Position numbers and translations under genes: made by a program
Source of the DNA: Babesia bigemina
Lineage: Eukaryota
Reading direction: 5' to 3'
NCBI RefSeq assembly: GCF_000981445.1
Contig: NC_027216.1
Span: forward strand, 1,860,001 to 1,924,000
Length of the DNA: 64,000 nucleotides
Shown: in pieces, positions 1,489 to 32,237 of the stretch
Position numbering within the stretch: the stretch's first letter is position 1
How the letters are laid out: each line of letters begins with the position of its first letter
Notes under the pieces: generated by a model
What the model was told of the DNA's origin: nothing
The model's database searches: none
The model's input: the letters and a program-made list of their open reading frames with translations, nothing else

Positions 1489-2553
1489 TGGTCTTCAACG
1501 TGCGGCACCGTCATAAATATCGATATGCTTATTGGATATTTCGCCAACGACGCCGCTTAGAGCTGATCAACTGCAACATGTGGTGCTGGTGAAGTGTACG
1601 CTGCGTTAAACAACGGTCATTTGTGCTCAACGTGCACTTTACGCTTGGTAGCACGTAACAACAATCTTGTAATGTTTCTACTTTATCTGTATAGATGTAA
1701 GATGCTAGTTAAATCTATAGCGATGTAAATGTTGTATGCTGACTCACCGGAACGTAACAGCTGGGCGAAACTCTCACGGTCCAATCGTTCGTTAGCTGTC
1801 CCACGTTTGAGGGGTTCGATCACTCATCAAAAGATGCGAGATTAAAAGTTGCGAAATATGGACGGGATTTAAGACTACCACATCAAGTAGACACAGTCCA
1901 TACGCCACGGCATGTACAGAGCGCAAGCTATAGGAAGTATTATTACAGTGGTACTAACTACGTATCCCCAAAGGTCCACACAACTTCAGCAGTGAGGTGT
2001 AAGCCAATCACACGCATGTCTAACTATTACGACCTAAGAATGTGATGTGCAGCAGAAGCGGTTCGACGTCATGAAGGTGTACGATTTAGTAGACAACGAT
2101 AATGTGAGACATGTGGCCGACACGTTTCGGTCTTAACAATAGCAATTCGCCTTCATCCATCCAACTTCTGTTAAAACAGTGGCACGTTCGTGATAAAGGT
2201 AGTATATAATCAGTCTAGTTGCGAAGACATGGGTCGATGCCAAAATAGTGATTGGCCATTAACCAATAGGACCAATGTGATCCAGTAATAGATTGAGACA
2301 TACTATAGATAACACTTAGTTGATGAACACATTGCACGCTGTCTAAAGGAATTTAAGGTATAATTGGGAATAGATGCATAAACAATGTAAAGGAAATTGG
2401 CATAACCATATCATGCCTGCACTCTGCATACCATGGCTTTTCAAATGTTCATTTTGATTCGACACCCTATATGTAGTTCAATTATGATGCCATATTGACA
2501 CCGGATGTGACATAATTAGAGGCATTCTATGTGAACTGGGATAGGCTATGAGA

Positions 2554-2727
2554 TTATTGGAGTTTAGGCTTGGAGTCACGGAATCCATCACGTAGTCTCG
2601 CGAAAAATTCTCCAAGGCTTACGTTATAAACTTGACCCATGATGTAAATGACCAATACAGGGAGGGCTATTATGGCAATGACGCCAATAATGCCACCAAC
2701 ATAATGCTTTGCGTCATCCCAAGTCAT
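2554..2727 (-). CDS. 57-aa single-TM microprotein, cassette copy 1 (MTWDDAKHYVGGIIGVIAIIALPVLVIYIMGQVYNVSLGEFFARLRDGFRDSKPKLQ)
   Basis: Translated by hand, below the ORF-track cutoff. The paralog at 27274-27447 has the same length, start and stop, with a ~20-aa hydrophobic segment and an identical RDGFRDSKPKLQ end. Confidence 0.75.
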   Translation of the reverse strand: MTWDDAKHYVGGIIGVIAIIALPVLVIYIMGQVYNVSLGEFFARLRDGFRDSKPKLQ

Positions 2728-4343
2728 CTTCTACAAAACACAATTGCAAATCACCCCTGCACAGCAACGCAAAACGTACCTCCGACCTCGAACACCCTCA
2801 GCCAACTGACAAGGTACAGTGCCCATATCGACACATCTGGCATGCCATCCGCATTGTGCTGGGGTTAGGGTTATTCCCGATCTCACAACCTTTGCATGGT
2901 GTGAACCCACAGAATTTCTGAGTGCATATATGAGGCATATGGACATCATAACTCAGATAACAAGGGGTGAAGCCGTCCAAAATACAAGATTGTTTTTTCA
3001 ATATCACCGACAAGTGCTTGCGTGCCACACTCTAACTGCTCCACCGCATGTCTTGGCGATCTGCCATTGACTATGACGATGTTAGTTGCCACATGTAATC
3101 GCATCCTGAAATGGCGCTTCTCTGTGGCGTGCCCTACCACCAAAGGCGGGGAGTCTTAGAATTATGCGTTACCCTACCGTTTACCTAAGCAGTAACACGT
3201 CATCCATTCAGATGAAAAATAGGTTACTATATCACCTAATATTGCACTCGTCACCTACTGCCGTGTATAGCCAAGCACCTGATTGGCACGGTGCGGAGCT
3301 ACTACTTAATCGCTCCATGATACCTACAACTCAGGCGCCGTATTGCAATGTAAATGCTCAGATGATTAACTCATATGTTGCTCGTATGTTATGTATTTGA
3401 TGCTGTTCTATATTCGTAGTGCCGTTGTAGGATCTGCCTTGTAATAAATTTGGAACCTAAAAGAAATCGTAGCAGCCGGGCGACTTTCTCATCCTCATAT
3501 ACGAGCGCTAAAACAGTCATGGGTGCAATGCCTTATACGAGGCAAAGTTATATGAAATCGGTAAATGGCAAATGATACTGCGTTGCGATATTGAAATTGT
3601 ATCTGAGCTGCTTAAGGATGCAAGTTATCCTTGTAAGGGAACGCTCAAAGGCGATCAATGTCAATATCGCAGTAAACCCTTTCACCAGTGATATAATTCG
3701 TGGATGAAACAGAAATCAGGGGTGGCTCGTCAAATACACCTCATAGTTTATAAACCAACATCAGTACTCCTTCAGTAAACACAACCCAACCAAAAGAGGA
3801 TGGTTAGGAGCACAAATATTTGGACTGGTAACGCACCAGCTGCGAATCACGTCATTACAGCCACTACCATAATCACGAGAGACAATTCATGTCTTGTACT
3901 GTTTCTAACCTTGTGCCAGCGCAACGCACACGAGTCGACATTACATTTATTACTGTCGTCACTTTCAGCATGATTAGTCACCAGAGGTCTTAAAGCAACT
4001 GTTTAAATTGTAAGACAGATATAAACTACACAGTTAAGAACAAACAGCGTTCGTCTAGTATTCAGCAGCTTTTATGGCGATTTGAAGCATTACACAATTC
4101 GTTCTGCGGCAATGGCAAGCATCAACATGAGTTTCGTGAAATCATTTGAGGTTTTAATCAGGTACCTTGCATAAATCATTTTCACTTGGTTGCAGTTGCG
4201 ATCATTAACCGATGTCCGGTGTCTATCCAGAACCGCTGCCATTACACCGTGAGTGTAAACCGAGCGTATCATTAAACGTATGTGATAATACAAGTAGATT
4301 ACAATGCGATGTTATTGATAGGACTGCCAACGCAATGAATTAG

Positions 4344-4802
4344 TTATGAAAGGTTTTTGCTTCCAAGTCCGGAGTAAGTCGTAGTGTACCCGGTCCACTC
4401 GTAGACCGCTTTGGGTATGATGTAAGCCGATGACTTTGTCTTATAGAGGTAGACAGCAAAGCCGAATAATATTGCGAATAAAATAACGCCGAATAAACAA
4501 CAAAGCATTGGCGTCCTGCTCTTATTACAACCTTCACATGGGCAAACCCAATTATTACAACCTTTATACCCAAAAGGTGAGCGTTTAATTTGTTTGGAGC
4601 GACATATCAAGCACCATGAGGAGTTCTTGCATTCGTCACAACACCAGGGGCAGCATTGACAAAATAGCCTATTACCTGTATCTAAACACGTACAAGGACA
4701 ACATTTACATTGTTGTTCTTTTTTGCAACTATTCCCCACGCAACACTGATTCTTTGTAGTCTTACAGTTTCCTTGTGTACATCCACACGTCTCTCCAGAC
4801 AT
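4344..4802 (-). CDS. Small Cys-rich single-TM protein, copy 1 (152 aa from the ATG at 4802)
   Basis: About 25 Cys in the N-terminal ~100 aa, TM LFGVILFAILFGFAVYLY, tail nearly identical to the paralog at 28202-28600. The ATG at 4802 aligns with the paralog ATG (GAGGGGAAAATG vs GAGGGAAAGATG). An alternative ATG lies at 4817. Confidence 0.85.
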   Translation of the reverse strand: MSGETCGCTQGNCKTTKNQCCVGNSCKKEQQCKCCPCTCLDTGNRLFCQCCPWCCDECKNSSWCLICRSKQIKRSPFGYKGCNNWVCPCEGCNKSRTPMLCCLFGVILFAILFGFAVYLYKTKSSAYIIPKAVYEWTGYTTTYSGLGSKNLS

Positions 4803-7320
4803 TTTCCCTCGATGCATGTATCAACCAAGCTTCTCAACAAAGGAAAACAAAATCAGATACCTGTGCCACCTATTATGGAATATCCTTGTTACAGCATCAC
4901 ATATCTAGACAGCAGTGCGTTTTGATATAGTATTTGCAGCGTGTCATTGTCCAAAACCTTGAGTGCTCCCCAATAGCCTGTGTTGAATACGCATGGCACA
5001 GTGGGTAAGTGTGGAACACCACAGACTTCATTGCATCTATTGTTTATGAAAGTTAGTTATATCGCACAATATTTAATATGGTAATATGTTCTGTTGTAAT
5101 CCGTAACCCTAGTCTCCATTACTCTACTTCAACTGAGTCACGCGAGGTGAGGAATGTAGACACTGCGTAATGTAGATGCTGAATAATACGATCATGCTGC
5201 TATACGCTATTAATAGAGCATGAATTCACAGAGTGATCAGTGAGACTAATTAGTAGTCCGTTGGAACATGCGTTGATGACCATCTCATAAGTCTGGGATT
5301 AAACTTCACGCTGAAGGCTGACACTTTTCGTGTCTTTCCAAATATTAGTCTTCCAACAACAATATGGTCTGCAACCAATATCACAAGATGTGTATTTTAC
5401 GCACCTAGTCTCTTTCTTGGTGTTATTTTGTGTATTGATGACCTATCCTGGGGGTTATTTCGCTCATGATGGCCAACTGGTTTCCTCTGTTGGCACCATA
5501 GAAAATCACATAATCGATTGAACTATACGACGCTTACGTGCATTATCAGAGCAAGCATTTTCGGGTTCAAAAATATTTTTAAGATTCTTCTCTTAGGCCG
5601 CGTCATCAATCAACTCGCTCACCTTTATGATACAATTGATCAGTTGCCATATATCATCACTGATAGTACGCACAGTGTTATGCTCTTGTCACATAGCATC
5701 GGCCTTGTCAGTGGTTGTCAGTTTTCCCACCTCGATCTATAATGACAAGCAACCGTTGATGGAATAAGATTATGATAGTTTATGAAAAGTGTTGGCTGTC
5801 AAGTGATATGTCATTGTGATCTGGCTTGACAGTTTTACGGATAGAATCGTACTATTGTCTTATCTAACATTGGGTTGGGGAACAGTACTAGCTCCTTGTT
5901 AACAGTGCACCAGTTAAACCCCAGAGAGCTCTTGGACAATTCGGATTCTACTTATATTTAAGTTTCAGTGATCACCACACAGCAGACGTATACAAATATG
6001 TTCCTGTAGTCACATGGATTGTTCGCCAATTCTGCCACCGTGTTAGAAACACATCGACTATGGTGGGTGGTTTGCCTGGGGGAAAGCTATTTTTAGTATT
6101 AATTACTGCCAATTAGAACTCCCGAATATTATTATCACTTGGGTATATGTAATTCGTGTGTGAAACTGTTGAAAAATGATTTGTCGCATTAAATGCCCCC
6201 CCCAAACAGCCGGACTGAAAAGACACCTTAGAGGTGTGACCCACTCAGCGATGAGACATTCCATAATATGAGGCGCATTATCATAGGGCTTAAGATACAA
6301 TATGATTGTGATGTTGTCTCAAGTGAGAAATCGCATTACTCCTCTTCATCTGATCAGATTAACTAAACCCTGCTTCAAGCACTGTTGCCGCTGCTGTTGT
6401 GTGGAAACACGAATTGAGACGTTATAAATGACTCTAGCACTTCTCCAGACAGCAGATACCAATACATTACGAATGCCACCAAATGGCAAATAGCAGCGAT
6501 TTTACAATAGCGTAGTAACAATGTTCCGCATAAGACTGCAGCCACTGGTCAAACAATTTAAATGTTAAATAGTGGAGCATAATGCTTTAAAAATCACTGC
6601 ACTATGTCAACATTCTGTCAGGCATTTGGTCTTCATTGCTGTGCTAGTCTGTGCTGATCGTAGCAGATAGCTGATTGGTAACAAGGCATAAGCAGCTGCA
6701 TAACAAATGCGTCTATATTTTAATCGACCTTGCAAAGGCCGATATGAGCATTAATTTGAAACTGTGGTGTATCTTACGACACTGATGACATTGATGGCGA
6801 AAGAACGCAACCTCCGCTTTCCGTAACTGTTGACGTCAAGGTGATGTTATACATTGTATCTTCGAGGAGAGGTTTGGGATCTCTCGGCTGAATGACAGCA
6901 GGTATATATGATTATCGCCCGAACCCATATGCTCATAACAGATGTAGCTAAGATGGTGAGTAGACAGTTCACCATAATTACTCATCACATCATGTTGCCC
7001 CGCGCCACTTACAGGAGTTGGCGAGGTACACCAACTTACGTTTCACATTTCAGTTCTAAAAAGGAATATAATTAAAGCGATTATATAGTGAAACGAATAA
7101 GATTCTGCGTACGAAGCATAAGGGAAATTGCAGTGGTCCCCCTTACCAATAGTGCTATGCATGTTATACACAGGTTCGTGAAAGCACCTCAGATTCTACA
7201 CAATTTTACACATGAAACACAAATTGATGCACATTGCCATGAATTGCTGATGCGGTGACTGAGGAATTGCACAGCCAACTGTTACCGCCTTCTGGGCACG
7301 TTGTTGAGCGCTTTACAGGG

Positions 7321-8079
7321 ATGGCAGAAATGGCGGCGGAGTTAGCGGATGGGAAAACAGCAGAGAATACATGCTTTGGATGTAACAACCGATGGAGCGT
7401 AAGCGCAGAATACTTCTGCTGTATACCCGGTTGTCCGGGGTGTAAAAAAATAAAGTGCTCCACAAAAAACAGATGTCATTGCAACGTTTGCGACTGCGGG
7501 TGCCAGAATGATGATGCGGTCAGAGAAGGTAAAAAGCGTTGTTACGAGAGCACATCTAACGGTTGCGCCAAATGCAAGGAGATATGCAACACCGAAAAAG
7601 CGGGAAAAAGATGTATATGCTTCCTTTGCAACTGTGGATGCAATGGCGTGAATTGTGGCTGCTGTACTTGGTGTGATTTTAACGACTGTTCTGGAGTATG
7701 CAACCGAGAGGACAAACACAGCGTAAAGTGTAAGGAAAACAAACAGAGCGGAAGCAAAGACTATGAATCGGGCAAGTATTACTGTGACGAGCACTTAGGT
7801 GGCGATTGCCTCGGCAAAAATTGCAACACAATCTACTACACCACCGGCACCTGCCGCGCGAAGTGCCAGTACTGCGGCACATTATGCGGCCAACATGTGT
7901 TTTTCCTACAGTGCACCATAGGTGGCCCCGTCATTGGAATCATACTAGTCAACATCGTCGTCTGGTTGATGTGGCGTGACAAGGCGCTGAAGGCAGTAGA
8001 TAAGATGCGCCGCTCATTCGCCAACCGCCCCGGACTATTCAAAACACGCTGGATGGTACGGGGATCCATGAAACATTGA
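7321..8079 (+). CDS. Large Cys-rich single-TM protein, copy 1 (252 aa from the first ATG)
   Basis: About 36 Cys, TM GPVIGIILVNIVVWLMW, basic tail. The paralog at 30818-31573 keeps the frame. The track ORF begins at a GTG (7255), which is unlikely in a eukaryote. Confidence 0.88.
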   Translation: MAEMAAELADGKTAENTCFGCNNRWSVSAEYFCCIPGCPGCKKIKCSTKNRCHCNVCDCGCQNDDAVREGKKRCYESTSNGCAKCKEICNTEKAGKRCICFLCNCGCNGVNCGCCTWCDFNDCSGVCNREDKHSVKCKENKQSGSKDYESGKYYCDEHLGGDCLGKNCNTIYYTTGTCRAKCQYCGTLCGQHVFFLQCTIGGPVIGIILVNIVVWLMWRDKALKAVDKMRRSFANRPGLFKTRWMVRGSMKH

Positions 8080-8466
8080 AACGTAAACAAACGCTACTCC
8101 GATTCACGTACAAGGATAATGTAGCTTCACGTAGTCAACGCTTTCAATAGAGCAGAAACTGCCGTATTAATGTAGTACATTTCATATGCTCATATTGATG
8201 TCCATCAAATATTGCTTGTCAGACAATTGCAAACCACAGTGCATATCGATATGGCATCGCATCTCACTCAGTAAATCAAAGTGCATCAACTACGACAAGG
8301 TATCCACTACACTCAAGCCAATAATCAAATCATCAACCACACCCAACACTCCACTCCAGACCAACCAAACAACACAAACCCCATGCACATCACCACATAC
8401 AACCGACCCACCACAGGAAACACAAAGAACTCAAAATTAGGCGGAAGCCAAGTCGCCGTGTCCGAC

Positions 8467-20456: not shown

Positions 20457-23078
20457 ATGGGGGTGAGACTGAGTTTACTACACCTCTGGTGCCTCATTTC
20501 GGTGCACCAAATCTACCGAGTTGACGGCTATGGCAGTGGCACGCTGTCGCTGCTGGGAGGAGAGATAAATCCGACTTACGACTTCTTCGGCGAGCTTGCG
20601 GTAGGGCTCTTTTTGCAAACCGATATACTTTGCAGGCGAATAACTCGCACAAGAAACATAACCACATTGCGGAAAGAGGGAACGGACATCATCACGGGCC
20701 GCACCATGGCAGTGAAGGCCATGGACATGAGCACCACCATGAACGGGAGGGGCACGAACATGGGACACATCACAAGATGATTCACGAGCACGGTAAAGAC
20801 GGCCACAATGCGCATAATCAAGCCCATTCAAAGCATCACCACAACCATGCTGGCGGCGCCGACGAACACTCCGGCCACCACGAAGCGGGCCACCATGGGC
20901 ATTCGAAGCATCACGCGAGCTTTTGCGAAACGCACAACTGCCCGGGCGGTCGCAAGGGAGTCAGGTTAGATGAAACAGGTGGACTGCCGTTGTTCCCTTC
21001 CTTTCTGGCATCAGACATACCCGGCTTTTTGGAGAGCCGCAACTTCCTCTACGAGCCGTCCCATGCAGGTTGGCAACACCGCCAAATAGACTAACATATT
21101 TGCAGCAATAGCCACAATTCCAGTTCACCCGCATCAATTTCTGGAGCGGGAGAGTGAGGCACACGATGTTGCTAAACACGAAAGCGCAAAGGATGGATCT
21201 GGACATCACGGCAGTGCCAAGCATGAAAATGTAGAGCACGGCGGAGACCCACAGCACAAATCTAAGTCGGAGGAAGCCGGCAATGGCCATAACAAATCCC
21301 ATTCGTCATCCAAAGATGAGGATGAGGAATTTGAGGACGAGGGCGACGATGAGTATTTGAAAGATGACTACGACGACGAGGACGACGAAGGCGAGGAAGA
21401 GGGATATGATGATGAATATATGGAGGACGACCTAAATGAAGACAAAGAATCCGGTCACGACAATGTTCCCGTATGCAAGCTTGCACCTGTCGGAAATCAT
21501 CCCAAGGATGGAAATGTCGTTCAAGGTGCCGAAGGACAGCAGTCGGGGACCCAGGGCGCCACCGACGCGCAACAGTCCATAAATGCTACCCACACAGAGC
21601 ATGCCGACGCTGCCACTGCAGGGGAACACATTGCGGGAGGGAACATTCGTGTGGACAAGCATACAGGCCTTGCCTGCAGGATTCGCCCGGAGGGGCACAG
21701 CGATGGAGCGGAGCAGCACACGGAAACTGCGCCATTGAATTCCCATCACGAGGACATGGATATCCGCAGCCACAACTCTGAGAATGCATCTGCGGCGACG
21801 GAATTGAATGCGCCGAAAGCTGCCGGGGATACCGCTGACGACGCCCATCACCAGGAGGGGTCAGCCGTTAACACTAATGAAAGCAGTGAACATACGGAAA
21901 AGAGCGAGAATACCGGTTCAGAGCACTCTGCTGACCAATCTACGGCTGCTTCAGTTAACGACAGTTCCGCCGATACGTCACACGAGAAGGAATCCGGCGC
22001 TGCAGATGAAGTCGACGCAGAGGATTCCAAGGGCGACCATAACACCGTCGACGAGGAGCATCACGAGGACGCTGAGAGCACGGATTCCGATCACAAAACC
22101 GCATCAGAGGAAAACGACAAGCAGGAGGAACATGATGATGAAGAAGCTAATCATGACGGTAAGGTTAATGATGAGGCGCAGGAACACGACGGCAAGCACG
22201 CGAGCGAAGAAGATGATGAGGAGTTCGACGATGAGGACGACGTAAAAAACGCGTCCGCAAAGGAAGAGGACGCAAATGCATCAAAAGAGGAAAACAAATC
22301 GCACCCAGAGGGCACCAGCGCGTCGGCCGAACATGCAAACTCTGATTCCTCCAAATCCAAGATGGATGCCGATGAGGAATCTGCAGACGCAAAAAGTGAG
22401 GACGATGACAAAGAGGAAGCTGAGGACGCGGATGACGAAGAGGATGAGAAGCACAATGAAAAGGAGGAGAAACACGAGTCTGAATCCCATGAAGCAGAGG
22501 AAAAGTCGGATGGTGCTGAGCACCACGAGAGTGGCAAAGATTCTGCGAATGAAGCCGACGCGGCAAAGACTGACAGTAAGCCAGCAGAGAAGGAAGCCAA
22601 AGCTGATAACCCAACCATAAATGCCGACACCGCAAATGCTGGCGCCAACAAGCCCGAGGCAAATAAGGCAACTGCGCAGCCCGAATCTACCGTAATACAA
22701 TCTGCAGCATCCGCTATACCGCAAGATGTTGTAAACAAGGTTGAACCTATCGCATCGCCCACCGTAGACGGGAAAGCAGTCGCCGTTGCTACCGCCAAGC
22801 CGCTGGTAGATGAAAGCGCTATTCCGTACTGCTCCGGTATCGATTCAGACGAAGGTGCTGCGTCCGCATATAGCGAAGAAGGTGATGTGCAGTCCAGCAA
22901 GCCCGGTTCCACAAAGGAGGATGGGGAAGATGACAACGAAGAACGTGACGAGGAGGAGCACGAAGCCTCAGAGCACCAAGAGGAAGCAGAGGAGGGCGAA
23001 AACGGAAACCAGAGCAAAAATGACGAGGAGGAAGCAGATGAAAAAGAAGAGGAGGGGGAGGAGGTAGATGACGAATAA
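20457..23078 (+). CDS. Secreted His-rich then Asp/Glu-rich low-complexity protein (~849 aa, 3 exons)
   Basis: Hydrophobic signal-like N-terminus. Introns 20601-20635 and 21069-21105 join the track ORFs at 20457, 20630 and 21357 in frame. Confidence 0.85.
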
Positions 23079-24680: not shown

Positions 24681-26301
24681 ATGGCGGAAGGGTCGTCAGG
24701 AAGTGATAATACTTCTGCACAATTGGATAGAAAACTTGAGTATGGACCGTTAGCAAAAGCACTCTACATATTGGTGTCTTTTTTTGAAGGCTACGACCAA
24801 CAAGTGTTGTCCATGTGTATGAGAACCTTTGAGTTGACATTGGGATTCTCACAGTCTCAGTTGTCTACGTTGGCAACGGTATCAACTATGTCCCGTATGG
24901 GTTGCTGCTTACTTTGGGGTTTACTGGCAGACCAGCATGATTCAAACCTTATACTTGGTGCTGGTCTTTTAGTGATGGGTATGGCTTCGATTTTCTTAAG
25001 TTCAGCGTCGCATTACAAAGTGGTAAGTTGCAATTGTTGCGGAATAGATACACTTGCAGATTGTGTTTTTGCGTTTCTTACACGGTTTTGGATTTGCCTG
25101 CGTTTACCCTGTACAACAAAAAATTGTTTCCGATTCGACAGAGTCGAAGGAAGCAGAAGATAAAAGGAAATCGGTAACAGAAAAAGGCACAAAGGGGGGG
25201 GCAGGATCACCGGGGACATCAGTAACACCTACATCTCCGGAAGCAGATACTGCAAAAACATCAAAGAAAAAGGAATCAAAGGAAGCTAGTACCATGTTCA
25301 CGGCTCTACAGGCTCTAAATTGCATTGGTCGTCTTTTATGCGCTGTGATAACTACGATAATCGCACGCAAAGTATTATTGGGTTATTATGGCTGGCGCAC
25401 TTCCTATGTAGTTTTAGGTTATGTATGGATATTGTTTGGTATAGGGATTCTATTTGGCTTGACACCTCTATGTCGAAACGAGGCTTATAAGTCCGACGAA
25501 AATTTTAAGGAGCTTTTAGAGGATGCGTTTTCAAACGCTTTTAGGAGGGCAACTACGTGGATATTGATATTGACGATATTCATCGCAGAAGCTCCAATGT
25601 CCGCGTTTAATTATATGACGATATACCTTCAATATTTAGGAGTATCTGACACAATGGCAGGCGTTGCAATTGCAGTTACATTGATTGGTGGCGCAGCGGG
25701 AAGTGGAGCTGGGGGGAAAATCATAGAGAAAATTGCGGATCTCGAAGACGGATTTGGTGAACTCGGTTGTGGAATCGCAGTGATGGTTGTCCGATTAGTG
25801 GTCTGTCTGTTGTTCTTCTTAGGGAAGCCACCGTGTGGAAAGTTGCTATGGTATCATTATGTAGAGTTGGCAACCCTTGGTGGAACATTAGTTACTGTTG
25901 GCGGAGTAGATAGGGCGCTTTTGAAGAGTTCGGTCGAAAATAAATCGCAGGCAACAGCGTCCGCGACAGTTAGAACCATATCTGGCATATCAAGTAGTAT
26001 AATTCTTTTCCAGGTTTGCGCATATTTGACCGAGAAGGTGTTCGGCTACGTACCATCTAGGGAGTCCTTTGAAACGATGGCAACAGATATTAAAGAGAGA
26101 AATGCTGAGGCTCTGAGGAAATCAATGATGTATATCATTTTGGCCGGCACATTGCTAAACGTTGTGTGCTATGTTGTGTTGTTTTTTACGTATAAAATGG
26201 ATAAGAAAAAAGTTGATGAGAACAATGCCAATCACAAAAAGAAAGTAGAAGAAAAACCAAAGCAGCTACAAGAAGGGTCGCAAAAATGTATGAAGAATTA
26301 A
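24681..26301 (+). CDS. Major facilitator superfamily transporter (~527 aa, 2 exons)
   Basis: Intron 25023-25059 (GTAAG..TTGCAG) joins two ORFs in frame. About 12 hydrophobic segments, motif-A-like WGLLADQHD, LRFLHGFG and YGWR. Confidence 0.92.
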
Positions 26302-27273
26302 GGAAATTATCGAATGAACGAGAACTTCGGCTTAGTAAACATGTGTGGTGTTCTGTTGAGATAATGAAGCATTTTGCGTATTAACTTATATATGCGACTT
26401 GTATGATACACGTATCAAGAGAACCGAATACTTAAATATCGGGCGATGCAATTGATGTTTAAAGTGTTGGCAGAAAATCTCTTTGTATGGTTTCAAAAGC
26501 AATGTTAATTCACTCGTAAGACATGTATTTCTAGTTTATTGAATGAAAAAATATGATTCCAGTACCACCACAAACATACGTTGCGTACCAATAGAAACAT
26601 TGAGATACAGATCCTAACAGAACTCCAATATGGGCAATTCCCATTAATGCGAATATTAGCGCAGAGAGGATTCTGTTTAAGAATGTCTCCACAAACGCCA
26701 ATGTGCGCGCAGATGCCCTCATCATGCAAGGTGCTACAGATCATCCATAACTAATGCTCAACACGAATAGGTGACAGCAATTGCTGAGTGCGATGCTGAC
26801 TAATCACAAGTATGTCGCGTTAACGAAATACGCTCTGGATGGCGCTGAGAAAGATCATATCGAGGCACTGATGAAGGACTTCCGCTTGCGCTTAATGTTT
26901 TATATACGTGGCGAGTTTAATGCTAAGATTTTATGGGTAGGAACAATTACCGGGTAAAACGCCTTTACAGCGGCTTGGAAGTTGACAGCGTTTCGTCACC
27001 TAAGCAACCACCAGATCCACATTTATACATGGCAGTGGCTAGTTAAAAAATTAAATCTGGCTATCCGAACCTGACGTAATTATTCTGGCATATAGTTTTC
27101 TGAATAACTTTTTAATTTACTTGTTGCCGTTCTGTTATATAACAGTATGATTACATCAGCGCTCCAGTTCTTTGCTACATAAACAAACAGGTTTTTCGCA
27201 CGCTAAGTCCCGAACAGCGTTAATATTACGCAGATATATGGAATAAACATGTACTGTGTGCGATCACGAGATA

Positions 27274-27447
27274 TTATTGGAGTTTAGGCTTGGAGTCACG
27301 GAATCCATCACGTATCTGGCTGAATATCTCGCCAAGACTTACGTTGTACTGTCTACCCATGATGTAGAGGACCAAGACAAGGAGGGCGGGAAATGCGATA
27401 AAGCCGCCAATAGCGGCGCCTGCGTAGCCTGCTTCTTCACCAGCCAT
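27274..27447 (-). CDS. 57-aa single-TM microprotein, copy 2 (MAGEEAGYAGAAIGGFIAFPALLVLVLYIMGRQYNVSLGEIFSQIRDGFRDSKPKLQ)
   Basis: Translated by hand. Paralog of 2554-2727 with the same length and the frame intact despite many substitutions. Confidence 0.75.
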   Translation of the reverse strand: MAGEEAGYAGAAIGGFIAFPALLVLVLYIMGRQYNVSLGEIFSQIRDGFRDSKPKLQ

Positions 27448-28201
27448 CTTCCCTTAACTTGTTTGCAACCAATCCTGCACAGCAACGAACTACGTACCTC
27501 CAACCTCGAACACCGTCGTCTAACTTACAAGATGTAGTACTTATATCAGCACACCTAGCATCCCAACTATCTTGTGCTGGGGTTAGGGTTATTCCCGATC
27601 TTGCAACCTTGGCATAGTGTGAACCCACGCATCTTACAAGTGCATATGTGAGGCATATTGACGTCATAATTAAGATAACACGGCATGAATATGTGCAATA
27701 TTCAAGAGTGTCCTTTCAATATGACTGGCCAGTGCTTGCGTGCCACGATCTGACTGCTCCACCGCATGCCTTGGCGAGCTGCCATTCACTATTACGATGT
27801 TAGTTGTCACATGTAATGGTATCCTTAAATGGCGTCTCTTTGTGGCTTACCCCAGCAATAAAGGCGGAGATGACTAGAATAATTCGTTACCCTACCGTCC
27901 ACCTAAAAAGTAACATGTCATCCAGTCAGATGATCCACAGGTCACTACATCACTTAAAATTACACTCATCACCTTCAGCATGATGAGTCATAAGCACGGG
28001 TCATAAAACAACTAACTCTTATAATTGTAAGAAAGATGTGAACTAGATTGCAGTTGCGATCATTAATCTCTGTCCGGTGTCTATCACAAACCGCTGCTAC
28101 TACACCGTGAATGTGAACTAAGCGCATCATTAAACGTGTGTGATGATACAAGTAGATTACGATATAACATGAACGCCTGGACACCGACCGGCATGTGTAA
28201 G

Positions 28202-28600
28202 TTACTGGAGATTCTTGCTTCCAAGTCCGGAGTACGTGGAAGTGTACCCGGTCCACTCGTATACCACTTTGGGTATCATGTAAGCCTTCGACTTTGTCTT
28301 GTAGATGATATAAGCGAAGGCGAGGAATATCGCAAAGATTAGAGCTCCGATGATGCACCAGAATACATTTGCAGATGCTGATTCACGTTTACTTATACAG
28401 CACCGGCACCCACATAGAGGTTCAGTGCATGGCTTATGCTTTGGTTCTAGACCACATTTGTGAGTTTTCGTGTCACATTTTTTCTTGCTCTTACACTGAC
28501 TCCCCTTACAAGAGTCACAACACCAGGGACAACAATTACACTGTTCATCAGTACACTGATTCCCTACGCAATTACACTTTTGCTCTGCTGCTGCTGCCAT
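28202..28600 (-). CDS. Small Cys-rich single-TM protein, copy 2 (132 aa)
   Basis: About 18 Cys, TM IIGALIFAIFLAFAYIIY, tail KTKSKAYMIPKVVYEWTGYTSTYSGLGSKNLQ matching copy 1. Confidence 0.85.
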   Translation of the reverse strand: MAAAAEQKCNCVGNQCTDEQCNCCPWCCDSCKGSQCKSKKKCDTKTHKCGLEPKHKPCTEPLCGCRCCISKRESASANVFWCIIGALIFAIFLAFAYIIYKTKSKAYMIPKVVYEWTGYTSTYSGLGSKNLQ

Positions 28601-30817
28601 CTTTCCCTCTTTTGACAATTAACCCAGAACAGCAACGAGAAACCTACTCAACGTTGCAGCAGTCGGGGTATGAACTGTTCACCCCTTCTATAAACTGTGG
28701 TTGTAATCGGTTATCGCATACATTAGAAATGCTATACGTTGCGACGCGTATTGGTAATTTGAATATCAACCCCTTGAATCAGCTATGCCAGGATACCACG
28801 CAGCTGCATGTGATGACGGGCATAAGAGGAACTAAGTCACATGCGTATCATATGTTCGAAGCATATATCCCACAGTCATATATTTGCTGTTTCATCCACT
28901 TGTAGCCGGCACTCAAAAATTCGGGTTGTCTACAACTCACATAAAACTGCGAATGCTGTTACGACTTGCCAATGCAGCATCCGAGGCTGACTCATAATAT
29001 TATGAAATTGTTCCACTTGAAACATCACTGATGCACAACACACTGGTCTGCGGTATAGCGTGTATCAATGGTCCCGTTGCGTGTATTACGAATCTGCCAA
29101 AACGACCTACTCCCCACCACCAAAACATTCACTATCCACGCTCACAATACTCTCTGAGTCCGATATGCCAGCCTGAATGTAATACTACTTTTGGGGTTTT
29201 ATGCAGTTCCAGTTGATCTGACAAGATTGTTATTACATGGTCTGAATGCCCAACCTGGTATGTACCAGGGGGCAACGCAGCTCCAATTACACCTTATACG
29301 GAGAGTTGCTCGTAAAATGCAATCTAATCACATTGGCACTCAGTATATCTTTTCATAACATGGGTTCTCGCGTATTACCTAATGCAGGCGTTTCTCTACA
29401 CCACGTGACTCGTTTTATACCTGCCATTCAAGCTGATAGCTGATCGAAGTGTCTCAATAAAATAATTATGAAGTTCCTTTTTTCGCTCTGTGAAAACGTT
29501 CCACAACTTAATGGCAACCCGTGATGCTATAAACATCATAAATGTTACTATTGTAACTACGATGGCCGTTGCTGGGGCTCTGCTGTATCATCTTAATATG
29601 GGCTAACCATCAGGCATTTGATGGCAACGTTGTTAGCAGCAGTAACGTAAATGCTATATGTGACAAGCATTTCGCATAAGTCTCTCATTAACATTAAATG
29701 CCCCAATCAGCCGGACTGAAAAGACACCTTAGAGGTGTGACCTCACCAGTGGAACATTCCATAATATGAGGCACGTTATCGTAGCTGTTAAGATATTATA
29801 CAGCTGTGCTATAGTCTGAACTGAGAAATCGCATTAGTTCTTTCCATCCGATCCGTTTCACTGAACCCTGCTTCAAGCACTGCTGCCGCTCTTGTGGTTG
29901 GGAAATGTTAAAAATAATAATCAACGTTGAAAGCAACGGATGTTATCACATTATGAATGTATCATAATGCAAAATAGTGAAGTTTCTGATAAGGCGTGGT
30001 AAACATCCACTTACGAGAATCGCACCCCGATTTGGAGAATCTACCTCAGAAGTTTGAATTCAAACACTTGGAGCATTTCCTGAGACAAAGGTATGCGTGC
30101 TTGGTCGATGATTATTTATCACTTTATAATGCTTTTCCCCACGCCATATGTGGTGATAGCAAGGCATAAAATAAGTTGAAGCGAGGCGGATTGATTTTTT
30201 TGTATAAGTGAAAGATTGGACCCCAACTCTTCGAATGAAAATAGCATTCATATAGCACTGTTCAGTATGACACTACACTGATGACATTGATGGCGAAAGA
30301 ACGCAACCTCCGCTTTCCGTAACTGTTGACGTCAAGGTGATGTTATACATTGTATCTTCGAGGAGAGGTTTGGGATCTCTCGGCTGAATGACAGCAGGTA
30401 TATATGATTATCGCTGGAATTCACATGATCATAACAGATGTAGCTAAGACAGTGAGTAGACAGTTCACCATAATTACTCATCACATCATGTTGCCCCGCG
30501 CCACTTACTGGAGTTGGCGAGGTACACCAGCATACGTTTCACATTTCAGTTCTAATACGAATTATAGCGTAAGTAAATATTATGTGAAATGGGTAACATT
30601 TTGCTTATTTGCTGTAACGGATATTTCATTGGTCCCTTCTTAACCGTTGCGCTCTGCATGTTGAACACCGCTTGCTTTAAACACTGTATATTCTACACAA
30701 TTTTACACATTGTGCAACAAGACAAACATATCGCCATGAATTGCTGATGCGGTGACTGAGGAATTGCACAGCCAACTGTTACCGCCTTCCGAGTACGTTG
30801 TTGAGCTCTTTACAGAA

Positions 30818-31573
30818 ATGGCTGTAATGACGGCGGAGTTAGCGGATGTGAAAACGGCGAATAAAACATGTTGTGGATGTAACAAACGATGGAGTGTAAG
30901 CGCTGAACACTTCTGCTGTATACCCGGTTGTCCGGGGTGTAAAATAATGTGCTCCACAAAAGGTAGATGTCATTGTAACGTTTGCGACTGCGGGTGCCAG
31001 AAAGATAATGATGTCAGAGAAGGCAAAACGCGTTGTTACCAGAGCACATCTAACGTTTGCCCCAAATGCAAGACGAAATGCAAAGATGTTCAAAATGGTG
31101 AAAGATGTATATGCTTCCTGTGCAACTGTGGATGCAATGGCGTGAATTGTGGCTGCTGTACTTGGTGTGCTTTTAACAACTGTACTGGAGTATGCGACCG
31201 AGAAGACAAACACAGCGAAAAATGTAAAGAAAACAAAGATAGCAAAAGCAAGGAGTATGAATCGGGCAAGTATTACTGTGACAAGCACTTAGATGGCAAA
31301 TGTATCGGCGGAATTTGCGACACAATCTACTACACCACCGGCACCTGCCGTGCGAAGTGCCAATACTGCGGTACATTATGCGGCCAACACGTGTTTTTCC
31401 TACAGTGCACCATAGGAGGCCCCATCATTGGAATCATACTAGTCAACATCGTAGTATGGTTGATGTGGCGTGACAAGGCGCTGAAGGCGGTAGATAAGAT
31501 GCGCCGCTCATTCGCCAATCGCCCCGGACTATTCAAAACACGCTGGATGGTACGGGGTTCCTTGAAAAATTGA
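30818..31573 (+). CDS. Large Cys-rich single-TM protein, copy 2 (251 aa)
   Basis: Paralog of 7321-8079 with the Cys scaffold conserved and the TM and tail almost identical. Confidence 0.88.
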   Translation: MAVMTAELADVKTANKTCCGCNKRWSVSAEHFCCIPGCPGCKIMCSTKGRCHCNVCDCGCQKDNDVREGKTRCYQSTSNVCPKCKTKCKDVQNGERCICFLCNCGCNGVNCGCCTWCAFNNCTGVCDREDKHSEKCKENKDSKSKEYESGKYYCDKHLDGKCIGGICDTIYYTTGTCRAKCQYCGTLCGQHVFFLQCTIGGPIIGIILVNIVVWLMWRDKALKAVDKMRRSFANRPGLFKTRWMVRGSLKN

Positions 31574-32040
31574 AACGTGGACAAACGCTACTCCGATTCA
31601 CGTACAAGGATAATGTAGCTTCACGTACAACACGTATTCAATGCAGCAGAAACTGCCGTATTAATGTAGTACATTTCATATGCTCATATTGATGTCCATC
31701 AAACATTGCTTGTCAGACATTTGAAAACCACAGTGCATATCGATATGGCATCACAACCACTCAAAAAATTAAAGTGCACCAACTACTATCAATAATCATC
31801 TACATTAAGCCAATAATCACGTCAATAACGATCAAGAATACAGACGCATCAAAATACGACCACATCAACTACGACAAAGGATGCACCACACTCAAGCCAA
31901 TACTCACATCACCGCCCACACCCATCACTCCAGACCAACCAAACAAGACAAACACCATGCACATCACCACCTACAACCGACCCAGCACAGGAAACACAAA
32001 GAACTCAAAATTAGGCGGACGCCAAGTCGCCGTGTCCGAC

Positions 32041-32237
32041 CTAACGCTGCGCGTAGTCACGCAGCATCAGACTCTTGCCGAGCAAGTGAACTGCTCGCAC
32101 CGACATCATCTCGCTCCACGAGAACATGTAGCGGCGTCTCAGAGCCAGCAGCTGCGCCAGCACGAAACCGTGTGCGCCGAATAGCTCCTTCTCACGTGAT
32201 TCCAGAACTATCGTTTCACGCTGGCAGATCTGGGCCA
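32041..32237 (-). pseudogene. Duplicated 3' fragment of the kinase gene (last ~65 codons)
   Basis: Matches 8467-8663 with 6 differences counted by eye in 197 bp. It contains no kinase domain. Confidence 0.9.

What the first reader, a model, noticed from the sequence alone, without database searches (positions are those of the whole stretch)
2554..2727. Hidden 57-aa transmembrane microprotein, copy 1
Not in the ORF track. Both copies are exactly 174 nt from ATG to TAA. The first ~22 residues differ almost completely but stay hydrophobic and Gly-rich through the TM. The last ~30 residues are strongly conserved (YIMG..YNVSLGE.F...RDGFRDSKPKLQ). Homology between the islands ends right at the stop codon, as expected if the ORF is what selection maintains.
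Basis: seen in the sequence. Interest (0 to 1): 0.75.

Follow-up and report, generated by a model that had tools for sequence, protein, structure and literature searches.

The report
Undescribed Babesia membrane microprotein family
This overlooked 57-codon reading frame is one of at least 18 related tiny genes found only in the cattle blood parasite Babesia bigemina, and it likely makes a one-helix membrane protein with a variable outer tip and a fixed inner tail, predicted to work at the parasite-host interface.

Summary
The ORF is real and lies on the minus strand (2727-2554; copy 2 at 27447-27274). Only this frame shows clear purifying selection between the copies (dN/dS 0.32, p=0.0007). 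It belongs to a family with 16 annotated 'hypothetical' paralogs, all Babesia bigemina; a scan of 1.84 billion proteins found no other species and nothing long. Members share a start Met after a conserved non-coding leader, a variable N-terminal tip (Cys-free, or Cys-rich), one transmembrane helix and a fixed-length amphipathic tail with Lys at -5 (18 of 18; full KxKxx in 12 of 18). The GTAAG is not a splice donor. The gene sits in duplicated islands of Cys-rich single-pass genes, and one paralog bridges to that neighbouring family. Four of 11 paralogs checked are transcribed in infected cattle and nearly absent in an attenuated line (published table; dropout is possible). It is not VESA1, VESA2 or SmORF. 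Best reading: a stripped-down variant host-interface membrane protein. Translation and location are untested. I found no paper that describes the family.

The parts
2554..2727 (-). 57-aa ORF, copy 1 (P0001)
   Evidence: dN/dS 0.32; exact sequence not in the protein collection
2635..2700 (-). predicted transmembrane helix, about codons 10-31, with a GxxxG motif
   Evidence: hydropathy 2.82; AlphaFold helix 3-34, mean pLDDT 69; motif scan
2557..2634 (-). conserved predicted cytosolic tail: amphipathic helix, then KxKxx-type end
   Evidence: AlphaFold helix 38-51; hydrophobic moment 0.54-0.78 in 12 members; tail ends
2553..2594 (-). 42-nt tract identical in both copies (last 13 codons including the stop); likely gene-conversion tract or DNA-level constraint
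   Evidence: 0 of 8 silent sites changed against 10 of 16 just upstream, p=0.006
2731..2733 (-). in-frame TAG just before the start codon (copy 2 has TAA at -9..-7)
2757..2779 (-). candidate 23-nt intron in the 5' leader; donor and acceptor kept in both copies; not shown to be spliced
2728..3256 (-). conserved non-coding 5' leader (predicted promoter plus 5'UTR)
   Evidence: 79% identity over 482 ungapped nt, mismatches 34/36/30 by codon phase, stops in all six frames; N-terminal extensions of annotated paralogs match it in two different frames
27274..27447 (-). 57-aa ORF, copy 2
27448..27974 (-). conserved leader of copy 2
4344..4817 (-). neighbouring Cys-rich single-pass ORF, 157 aa (island 1); possibly the same superfamily
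   Evidence: (dN/dS 0.25)
28202..28600 (-). its paralog in island 2, 132 aa (P0006; exact sequence is in public collections)
7321..8079 (+). divergently oriented Cys-rich single-pass ORF, 252 aa (island 1); no detectable homology to the microprotein
30818..31573 (+). its paralog in island 2, 251 aa
1489..8466 (.). island 1 (GC 0.43 against 0.55-0.57 in flanking genes)
26302..32237 (.). island 2 (GC 0.43), ending in a copied 3' piece of the kinase gene that flanks island 1

Best explanation
The ORF is an unannotated member of a Babesia bigemina multigene family and likely encodes a tiny single-pass membrane protein, predicted to sit N-terminus out and tail in, that would act as a variant host-interface protein whose conserved tail is its likely sorting or docking handle. 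Steps. (1) Shown: an intact frame under purifying selection, a family of at least 18, a conserved non-coding leader, an in-frame stop just before the Met. (2) Shown in published data, for paralogs only: transcription in infected cattle. (3) Inferred: the transmembrane helix doubles as an uncleaved signal-anchor; the N-terminal tip faces the lumen or outside, since paralogs with a longer tip carry paired Cys and the tail is basic. (4) Inferred: the tail, fixed in length and with an invariant Lys at -5, binds a conserved cytosolic partner such as a vesicle coat or scaffold. (5) Inferred: the tip is exchanged between a conserved leader and a conserved 3' end by gene conversion, and the two window copies belong to the subgroup whose ectodomain has shrunk to about 8 residues from a Cys-rich ancestor shared with the neighbouring gene.
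For: Frame-specific dN/dS 0.32, p=0.0007. 16 annotated paralogs, all B. bigemina. A whole-library HMMER scan gave 9 hits, all B. bigemina, 67-95 aa. The Ser-Leu/Phe-Gly motif lies 21 residues from the end in 17 of 18 members. Among 12 members counted from the conserved Met, 5 are Cys-free (57-60 aa) and 7 carry 2 or 4 Cys (68-71 aa). BBBOND_0109010 scores E=6e-8 to the family profile and 92% probability to the neighbouring Cys-rich pair (BLAST E=2e-5; 0 of 300 shuffles). Both copies lie in islands with two other variable-ectodomain single-pass families. 3 of 16 paralog locus tags lie within 2 tags of a listed ves1b gene and 7 of 16 within 7 tags of a listed ves gene (partial lists). PMC4066756 (passages and sections 21-22 read) says non-ves species-specific genes often have a conserved C-terminal end and a transmembrane domain and that multicopy genes gather at ves-type sites. 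[quoted passage not shown]
Against: There is no RNA or peptide evidence for these two copies. None of the 11 paralogs searched is in the 459-row proteome table of PMC4066756 (positive control found), though such short hydrophobic proteins yield few peptides. The reference annotation is ab initio, so annotated paralogs are predictions. No cleaved signal peptide is evident and no RxL was found. An 8-residue tip is barely exposed, and the N-terminal part shows no excess of amino-acid change (dN 0.67, dS saturated). A KxKxx end (12 of 18) argues for retention inside the parasite. The RNA contrast may be dropout: the attenuated infections had at most 0.1% parasitaemia, ribosomal protein S29 shows logFC -10.5 in the same table, and 4 of 11 against 519 of 3544 gives only p=0.064. 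The family profile as a whole matches the neighbour poorly (probability 3.6% and 17%), and the tail-only match is weak (p=0.03-0.08). The locus-tag proximity to ves genes was not tested against a null.
Confidence: 0.5

Rival explanations
1. The protein stays in the parasite's ER/cis-Golgi. Its KxKxx tail would bind COPI, and it would escort or hold back other single-pass surface proteins through helix-helix contacts. Paralogs with Ser at -3 would escape retrieval.
For: KxKxx in both copies and 12 of 18 members; Lys at -5 in 18 of 18; fixed tail length. PMC3521961 (passages): Lys at -3 and -5 is the motif, and KTSLL abolishes beta'-COP binding, which parallels the five natural paralogs with Ser at -3. 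Small-xxx-small motifs occur in 12 of 12 helices scanned.
Against: The key -3 Lys is missing in 6 of 18. The last 13 codons look homogenised at DNA level, so the 12 cases are not independent. A species-restricted, variable, Cys-paired tip fits an exposed protein better than housekeeping traffic. I found no passage showing dilysine retrieval in Babesia.
Confidence: 0.22
2. The ORF is the last exon of a somewhat longer protein, with a short upstream coding exon inside the conserved leader.
For: Four annotated paralogs (P0002, P0012, P0015, P0016) start at a Met that appears to correspond to window 2826; three of them match that DNA in the same frame, and P0016 has no other Met before the helix. 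A frame from ATG 2949 is open for 72 and 76 codons in the two copies (dN/dS 0.5, p=0.09). A 13-codon exon with a weak donor at -183 and an AAG acceptor is possible in both copies.
Against: Both copies have an in-frame stop just before the ATG. The best conserved donor (2779) gives no ATG-started in-frame extension in either copy. Another paralog (P0008) uses a different frame of the same DNA. Leader mismatches show no codon periodicity. No protein over 114 aa carries the tail.
Confidence: 0.12
3. It is a relic: a Cys-rich surface gene that lost its ectodomain, copied along with the islands and kept tidy by gene conversion, with little function as a protein.
For: The islands are duplicated and even carry a piece of a kinase gene. 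The tail tract is identical at silent sites. One paralog lacks the helix (P0013). Copy 1 has the longest branch in the tree (1.13). No peptides were found.
Against: Silent changes outnumber replacements in codons 22-45, outside the identical tract (pS 0.60 against pN 0.22). Five Cys-free members keep the Met, helix and length (57-60 aa). Two Cys-free paralogs are among the transcribed four.
Confidence: 0.12
4. GTAAG at the Val-Ser codons is a splice donor and the ORF is an internal exon.
For: GTAAG is present in both copies.
Against: The codons after it change at silent sites (pS 1.0, pN 0.30). 8 of 18 members lack Val there. 17 of 18 members end 21 residues after the Ser.
Confidence: 0.02

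Closest known systems
VESA1 / BbigVes1a,b (Babesia variant erythrocyte surface antigens)
   Same: Multigene family; variable outer part, one C-terminal transmembrane helix, short conserved tail, no signal peptide (PMC9477259, PMC4066756; passages read); some paralogs lie next to ves1b genes.
   Different: 57-114 aa against listed ves1b products of about 190 kDa; no VESA1_N match; no long protein matches the tail profile.
SmORF (B. bovis) and VESA2 (B. bigemina)
   Same: Small, species-specific multigene families interspersed with ves loci; SmORF is the third gene beside divergent ves pairs, as this ORF is beside a divergent Cys-rich pair.
   Different: Both have a signal peptide and no membrane anchor; SmORF has a PEXEL-like motif and repeats. 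This family is essentially an anchor plus a tail.
Unnamed species-specific multicopy transmembrane genes noted by Jackson et al. 2014 (PMC4066756)
   Same: B. bigemina-specific, conserved C-terminal end, predicted transmembrane domain, predicted surface role.
   Different: In the passages read the paper mentions them only as a class; it does not define this family, its size range or its tail.
Dilysine (KKxx/KxKxx) COPI cargo such as yeast Emp47 and p24 proteins
   Same: Single-pass protein with Lys at -3 and -5 in 12 of 18 members, and Phe-containing pairs upstream.
   Different: No GOLD or other luminal domain; the motif is absent in a third of members; no homology.
Plasmodium PEXEL-negative exported single-pass proteins (PNEPs; class read in PMC9477259, the small example REX2 is recalled, not from a call)
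   Same: One helix serving as ER entry signal, no PEXEL.
   Different: No sequence similarity found; export is untested here.

Membership tests
VESA1 (ves1) | Homology to the conserved VESA C-terminal domain / large ectodomain | tested here: not met
   Whole-library scan: 9 hits, all 67-95 aa; search of 161-2000 aa proteins: none at E<=1 (weak test). No direct alignment to a VESA1 sequence was run, as none was fetched.
VESA1 (ves1) | VESA1_N domain | tested here: not met
   No such Pfam match for either copy, the neighbours scanned, or 12 family members
VESA1 (ves1) | Single C-terminal transmembrane helix with short tail, no signal peptide | tested here: met
   (predicted)
VESA1 (ves1) | Display on the infected red cell; one gene expressed at a time | not testable with these tools
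   Four paralogs appear together in one population-level table, which neither shows nor excludes it
VESA2 (ves2) | Homology to the 5' part of ves1b, signal peptide, no membrane anchor | tested here: not met
   Has a transmembrane helix and tail; no VESA1_N match; definition
SmORF | Signal peptide, PEXEL-like motif, A/B repeats, no transmembrane helix | tested here: not met
   No RxL in 12 of 12 cores (RxxL was not scanned); helix present; definition
KxKxx COPI cargo | Lys at -3 and -5 at a free C-terminus | tested here: met
   Both copies; 12 of 18 members
KxKxx COPI cargo | Cytosolic orientation of the tail and binding to alpha/beta'-COP | not testable with these tools
   Orientation is inferred from charge and Cys distribution
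Neighbouring Cys-rich single-pass family (132/157 aa) | Common ancestry | tested here: inconclusive
   Bridge through P0017 at 92%, but whole-family profile 3.6-17% and tail-only p=0.03-0.08

The most novel reading that the evidence does not exclude
B. bigemina carries an unrecognised family of 20 or more membrane microproteins, the stripped-down end of a Cys-rich surface superfamily, that is expressed in virulent parasites and shut off in the culture-attenuated vaccine line. A single natural change at the -3 position of the tail sorts members into an ER-retained pool and a surface-bound pool, making them tunable escorts of variant-antigen traffic.
Probability: 0.15. Interest if true: 0.78.

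Novelty: new variant of a known kind. Interest (0 to 1): 0.5.

Why it matters
Variant surface and exported families (ves, smorf, mtm) are central to Babesia persistence, and B. bigemina's are little studied (PMC9477259). This family is small enough to be missed or mis-started by gene finders: the two copies here are in no protein collection, and several annotated paralogs seem to have wrong N-termini. It gives a compact, testable unit with one conserved tail peptide that a single antibody or targeted mass-spectrometry assay would detect. If the expression contrast holds, it is also a candidate marker for telling the attenuated vaccine line from field parasites. Small lineage-specific membrane gene families are an expected kind of thing in apicomplexans, so the surprise is moderate.

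Tried and rejected
No whole genome is held for this window, so unannotated copies elsewhere could not be counted. Sequencing-run search: no RNA holder was listed; this is no evidence either way, and no reads were laid. Pfam: only sub-threshold hits to generic helices (AcrZ, PsbH and others). PDB sequence search: 0 hits. ESM Atlas: best scores 0.82 and 0.77, below the lead threshold. Metagenome scan: 2 weak partial matches (E 2e-4 and 3e-4 among candidates; L001, L002), judged chance and not read. Rfam over 1500-8500: none. RNA folding of the identical tail tract and the near leader: z from -0.07 to -1.36, no structure. Upstream region as a long coding exon: rejected. Homology to the 252-aa neighbour: 2%. 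No fold search was run, because the model is two plain helices at pTM 0.32. Earlier scan findings: nothing relevant. Literature: 0 papers hold any of the 16 locus tags in their main text; none of the 11 searched is in the supplements of PMC9531838; topic searches listed no description of the family. The library lacks most subscription papers. Supplements not seen that may bear on novelty or expression: file 1 and the figures of PMC4066756, the tables of PMC10463595, and most of Table S1 of PMC10975891 (only search hits and part 7 of 9 were read; four of the five late-found paralogs were not checked there, and 0313740 is absent from the part that covers its range).

Full report
Setting. The window is eukaryotic. 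It holds intron-split housekeeping genes, an RCC1-repeat gene, a kinase and an MFS transporter. All named homologs of the ORF are Babesia bigemina proteins, and one neighbouring ORF is letter-for-letter in public eukaryote collections, so the species is inferred to be B. bigemina. Two islands of lower GC (1489-8466 and 26302-32237; 0.43 against 0.55-0.57) are partial duplicates. Each has the same layout: the 57-aa ORF (-), a Cys-rich single-pass ORF of 157 or 132 aa (-), and a divergently oriented Cys-rich single-pass ORF of 252 or 251 aa (+).

Observation. The ORF is on the minus strand, 2727-2554; copy 2 is 27447-27274. Both are 174 nt and align without gaps. Residues 1-21 are 7 of 21 identical and residues 28-57 are 24 of 30. 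Upstream, however, 482 nt align ungapped at 79%.

Is it coding? Nei-Gojobori dN/dS between the copies is 0.32 over the ORF (p=0.0007) and 0.28 over codons 22-57 (p=0.008). The other five frames give 1.07, 1.34, 1.55, 0.49 and 1.32. The upstream region has no codon periodicity (34/36/30) and has stops in all six frames, so it reads as a conserved promoter and 5'UTR. The last 13 codons are identical even at silent sites (0 of 8 against 10 of 16, p=0.006) and form no notable RNA structure; gene conversion is the simplest account, and this is inferred.

Family. A single-sequence search gave 4 annotated hypothetical proteins, a profile search gave 11, and a whole-library HMMER scan plus cluster look-up added 5 more: 16 annotated paralogs and the two copies here, 18 in all. 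All 9 hits of the whole-library scan are B. bigemina and 67-95 aa. No protein of 161-2000 aa scored (a weak test). Several long annotated N-termini match the window's leader DNA: P0008 in one frame; P0012, P0015 and P0016 in another. The reference annotation was ab initio (PMC4066756, passage), so these extensions are probably read-throughs of the leader. Counted from the conserved Met, 12 members fall into a Cys-free group of 57-60 aa (both copies and three paralogs) and a group of 68-71 aa with 2 or 4 Cys (the split of six Cys-bearing members has support 100/97, most other branches are open). P0013 lacks the helix and was left out of the tree; the five late-found members were not in it.

Start and splicing. 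Both copies have an in-frame stop just before the ATG and an AAG-ATG context like that of long ORFs in the window. A GT..AG pair at 2779-2757 is conserved in both copies, and two paralog models lack about the same number of residues at this point, but 23 nt is shorter than the 41-nt intron inferred in an Hsp90-type gene of the window, so it stays a candidate. This donor yields no upstream in-frame extension in either copy. Weaker donor/acceptor pairs could, including a 13-codon exon, so that rival keeps about 12%. The GTAAG is not a donor: silent changes follow it and 8 of 18 members lack the Val codon.

Anatomy. There is one hydrophobic stretch. AlphaFold gives helix 3-34 and helix 38-51 at mean pLDDT 69, pTM 0.32. 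The second helix is amphipathic in 12 of 12 members examined. An acidic or Cys-paired N-terminus and a basic tail point to an N-out, C-in signal-anchor protein (inference from standard topology rules). The tail has a fixed length in 17 of 18 members, Lys at -5 in 18 of 18 and a full KxKxx in 12 of 18. In yeast the -3 Lys is the key contact for beta'-COP and a Ser there abolishes binding (PMC3521961, passages); five paralogs have exactly that Ser. This makes the tail a plausible sorting signal, but it weakens the idea that ER retrieval is the family's shared function.

Relation to neighbours. The family profile does not match either neighbouring family well. One divergent paralog, BBBOND_0109010, with a longer Cys-rich tip, matches both the family (E=6e-8) and the 132/157-aa pair (92%; 0 of 300 shuffles over the full length, p=0.03-0.08 for tails alone). 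Common ancestry is plausible but not settled, since Cys-rich and hydrophobic composition can inflate such scores. Some paralogs sit beside ves genes: for example tag 0303050 next to ves1b 0303060, and 0305150 and 0305410 two tags from ves1b genes. The ves lists were partial and no null was computed.

Expression. No run was listed for this DNA, so these copies are untested. In PMC10975891 (abstract, methods, results, passages, search hits and part 7 of 9 of Table S1 read), 4 of 11 paralogs searched are listed at logFC -9.7 to -10.9 and logCPM 8.8-9.8, higher in the virulent strain; two are Cys-free like the copies here. That shows the family is transcribed in blood stages in cattle. The contrast is less sure. 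In the 70 rows read, 7 have logFC at or below -9.7 and 3 of them are family members (p=0.0006 within that part), but one is ribosomal protein S29, the attenuated samples had at most 0.1% parasitaemia, paralogs can share reads, and overall enrichment is p=0.064. None of the 11 is in the published proteome table.

Mechanism. Most likely (0.5): a minimal variant host-interface membrane protein, inserted by its helix, with a swappable outer tip between a conserved leader and a conserved 3' end, and a tail that docks on a conserved cytosolic partner. Rivals: ER/Golgi escort through KxKxx (0.22), short upstream exon (0.12), relic (0.12), internal exon (0.02). I put the chance that the ORF is a real protein-coding gene at about 0.85-0.9.

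Comparison and novelty. It works like the anchor end of VESA1 and sits like SmORF, but fails the membership tests for VESA1, VESA2 and SmORF (definitions from PMC4066756, PMC9477259 and PMC6630957, passages read). Jackson et al. noted such species-specific transmembrane genes only as a class. Searches for all 16 locus tags found no paper in the library. Of PMC10463595 I read part 2 of 5, which covers B. caballi families and does not mention it. PMC10433460 and PMC7950211 (passages) gave no evidence on dilysine retrieval in Babesia. Verdict: a real, apparently undescribed microprotein family, a new variant of a known kind, interest 0.5.

Noticed in passing
window 31863-32237 vs 8284-8663: Island 2 ends in a 93%-identical copy of the 3' end of the kinase gene that flanks island 1 (62 of 64 residues identical), which suggests the right arm was copied from island 1 while the left arm is older (78%).
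   Followed up: partly
window 4344-4817 and 28202-28600 (-); 7321-8079 and 30818-31573 (+): Two further Cys-rich single-pass families, with no Pfam match for the three ORFs scanned, arranged head to head like ves pairs, with conserved tails (dN/dS 0.25 and 0.14) and variable ectodomains.
   Followed up: partly
window 6187-6407 vs 29692-29905; 6747-7243 vs about 30243-30740: Conserved non-coding elements between the divergent Cys-rich genes, with near-identical blocks; candidate shared promoter elements.
   Followed up: no
window 2949-2731 (-) and 27667-27437 (-): An upstream frame is open for 72 and 76 codons in both copies (dN/dS 0.5, p=0.09). An ATG at 2826 in that frame appears to be the start used by four annotated paralogs but is out of frame here and lost in copy 2; it could act as an upstream ORF.
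   Followed up: partly
window 3227-3185 (-): A second candidate intron of 43 nt with ends conserved in both copies, at the far end of the leader.
   Followed up: no
window 24681-26301 (+): An MFS transporter gene directly abuts island 2; B. bigemina has an expanded mfs family, and MFS export was shown in B. ovata (PMC9477259).
   Followed up: no
window 21090-23078 (+): Long acidic, His-rich low-complexity ORF (662 codons stop to stop), resembling a secreted protein.
   Followed up: no
P0013 (BBBOND_0109930): An annotated paralog keeps the leader-derived part and the tail but lacks the transmembrane helix; a deletion or a wrong gene model.
   Followed up: no
PMC10975891 Table S1, part 7: Hypothetical genes with tags next to expressed paralogs (0307660, 0310450, 0310470) are also higher in the virulent strain, hinting that whole islands are co-regulated.
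   Followed up: no
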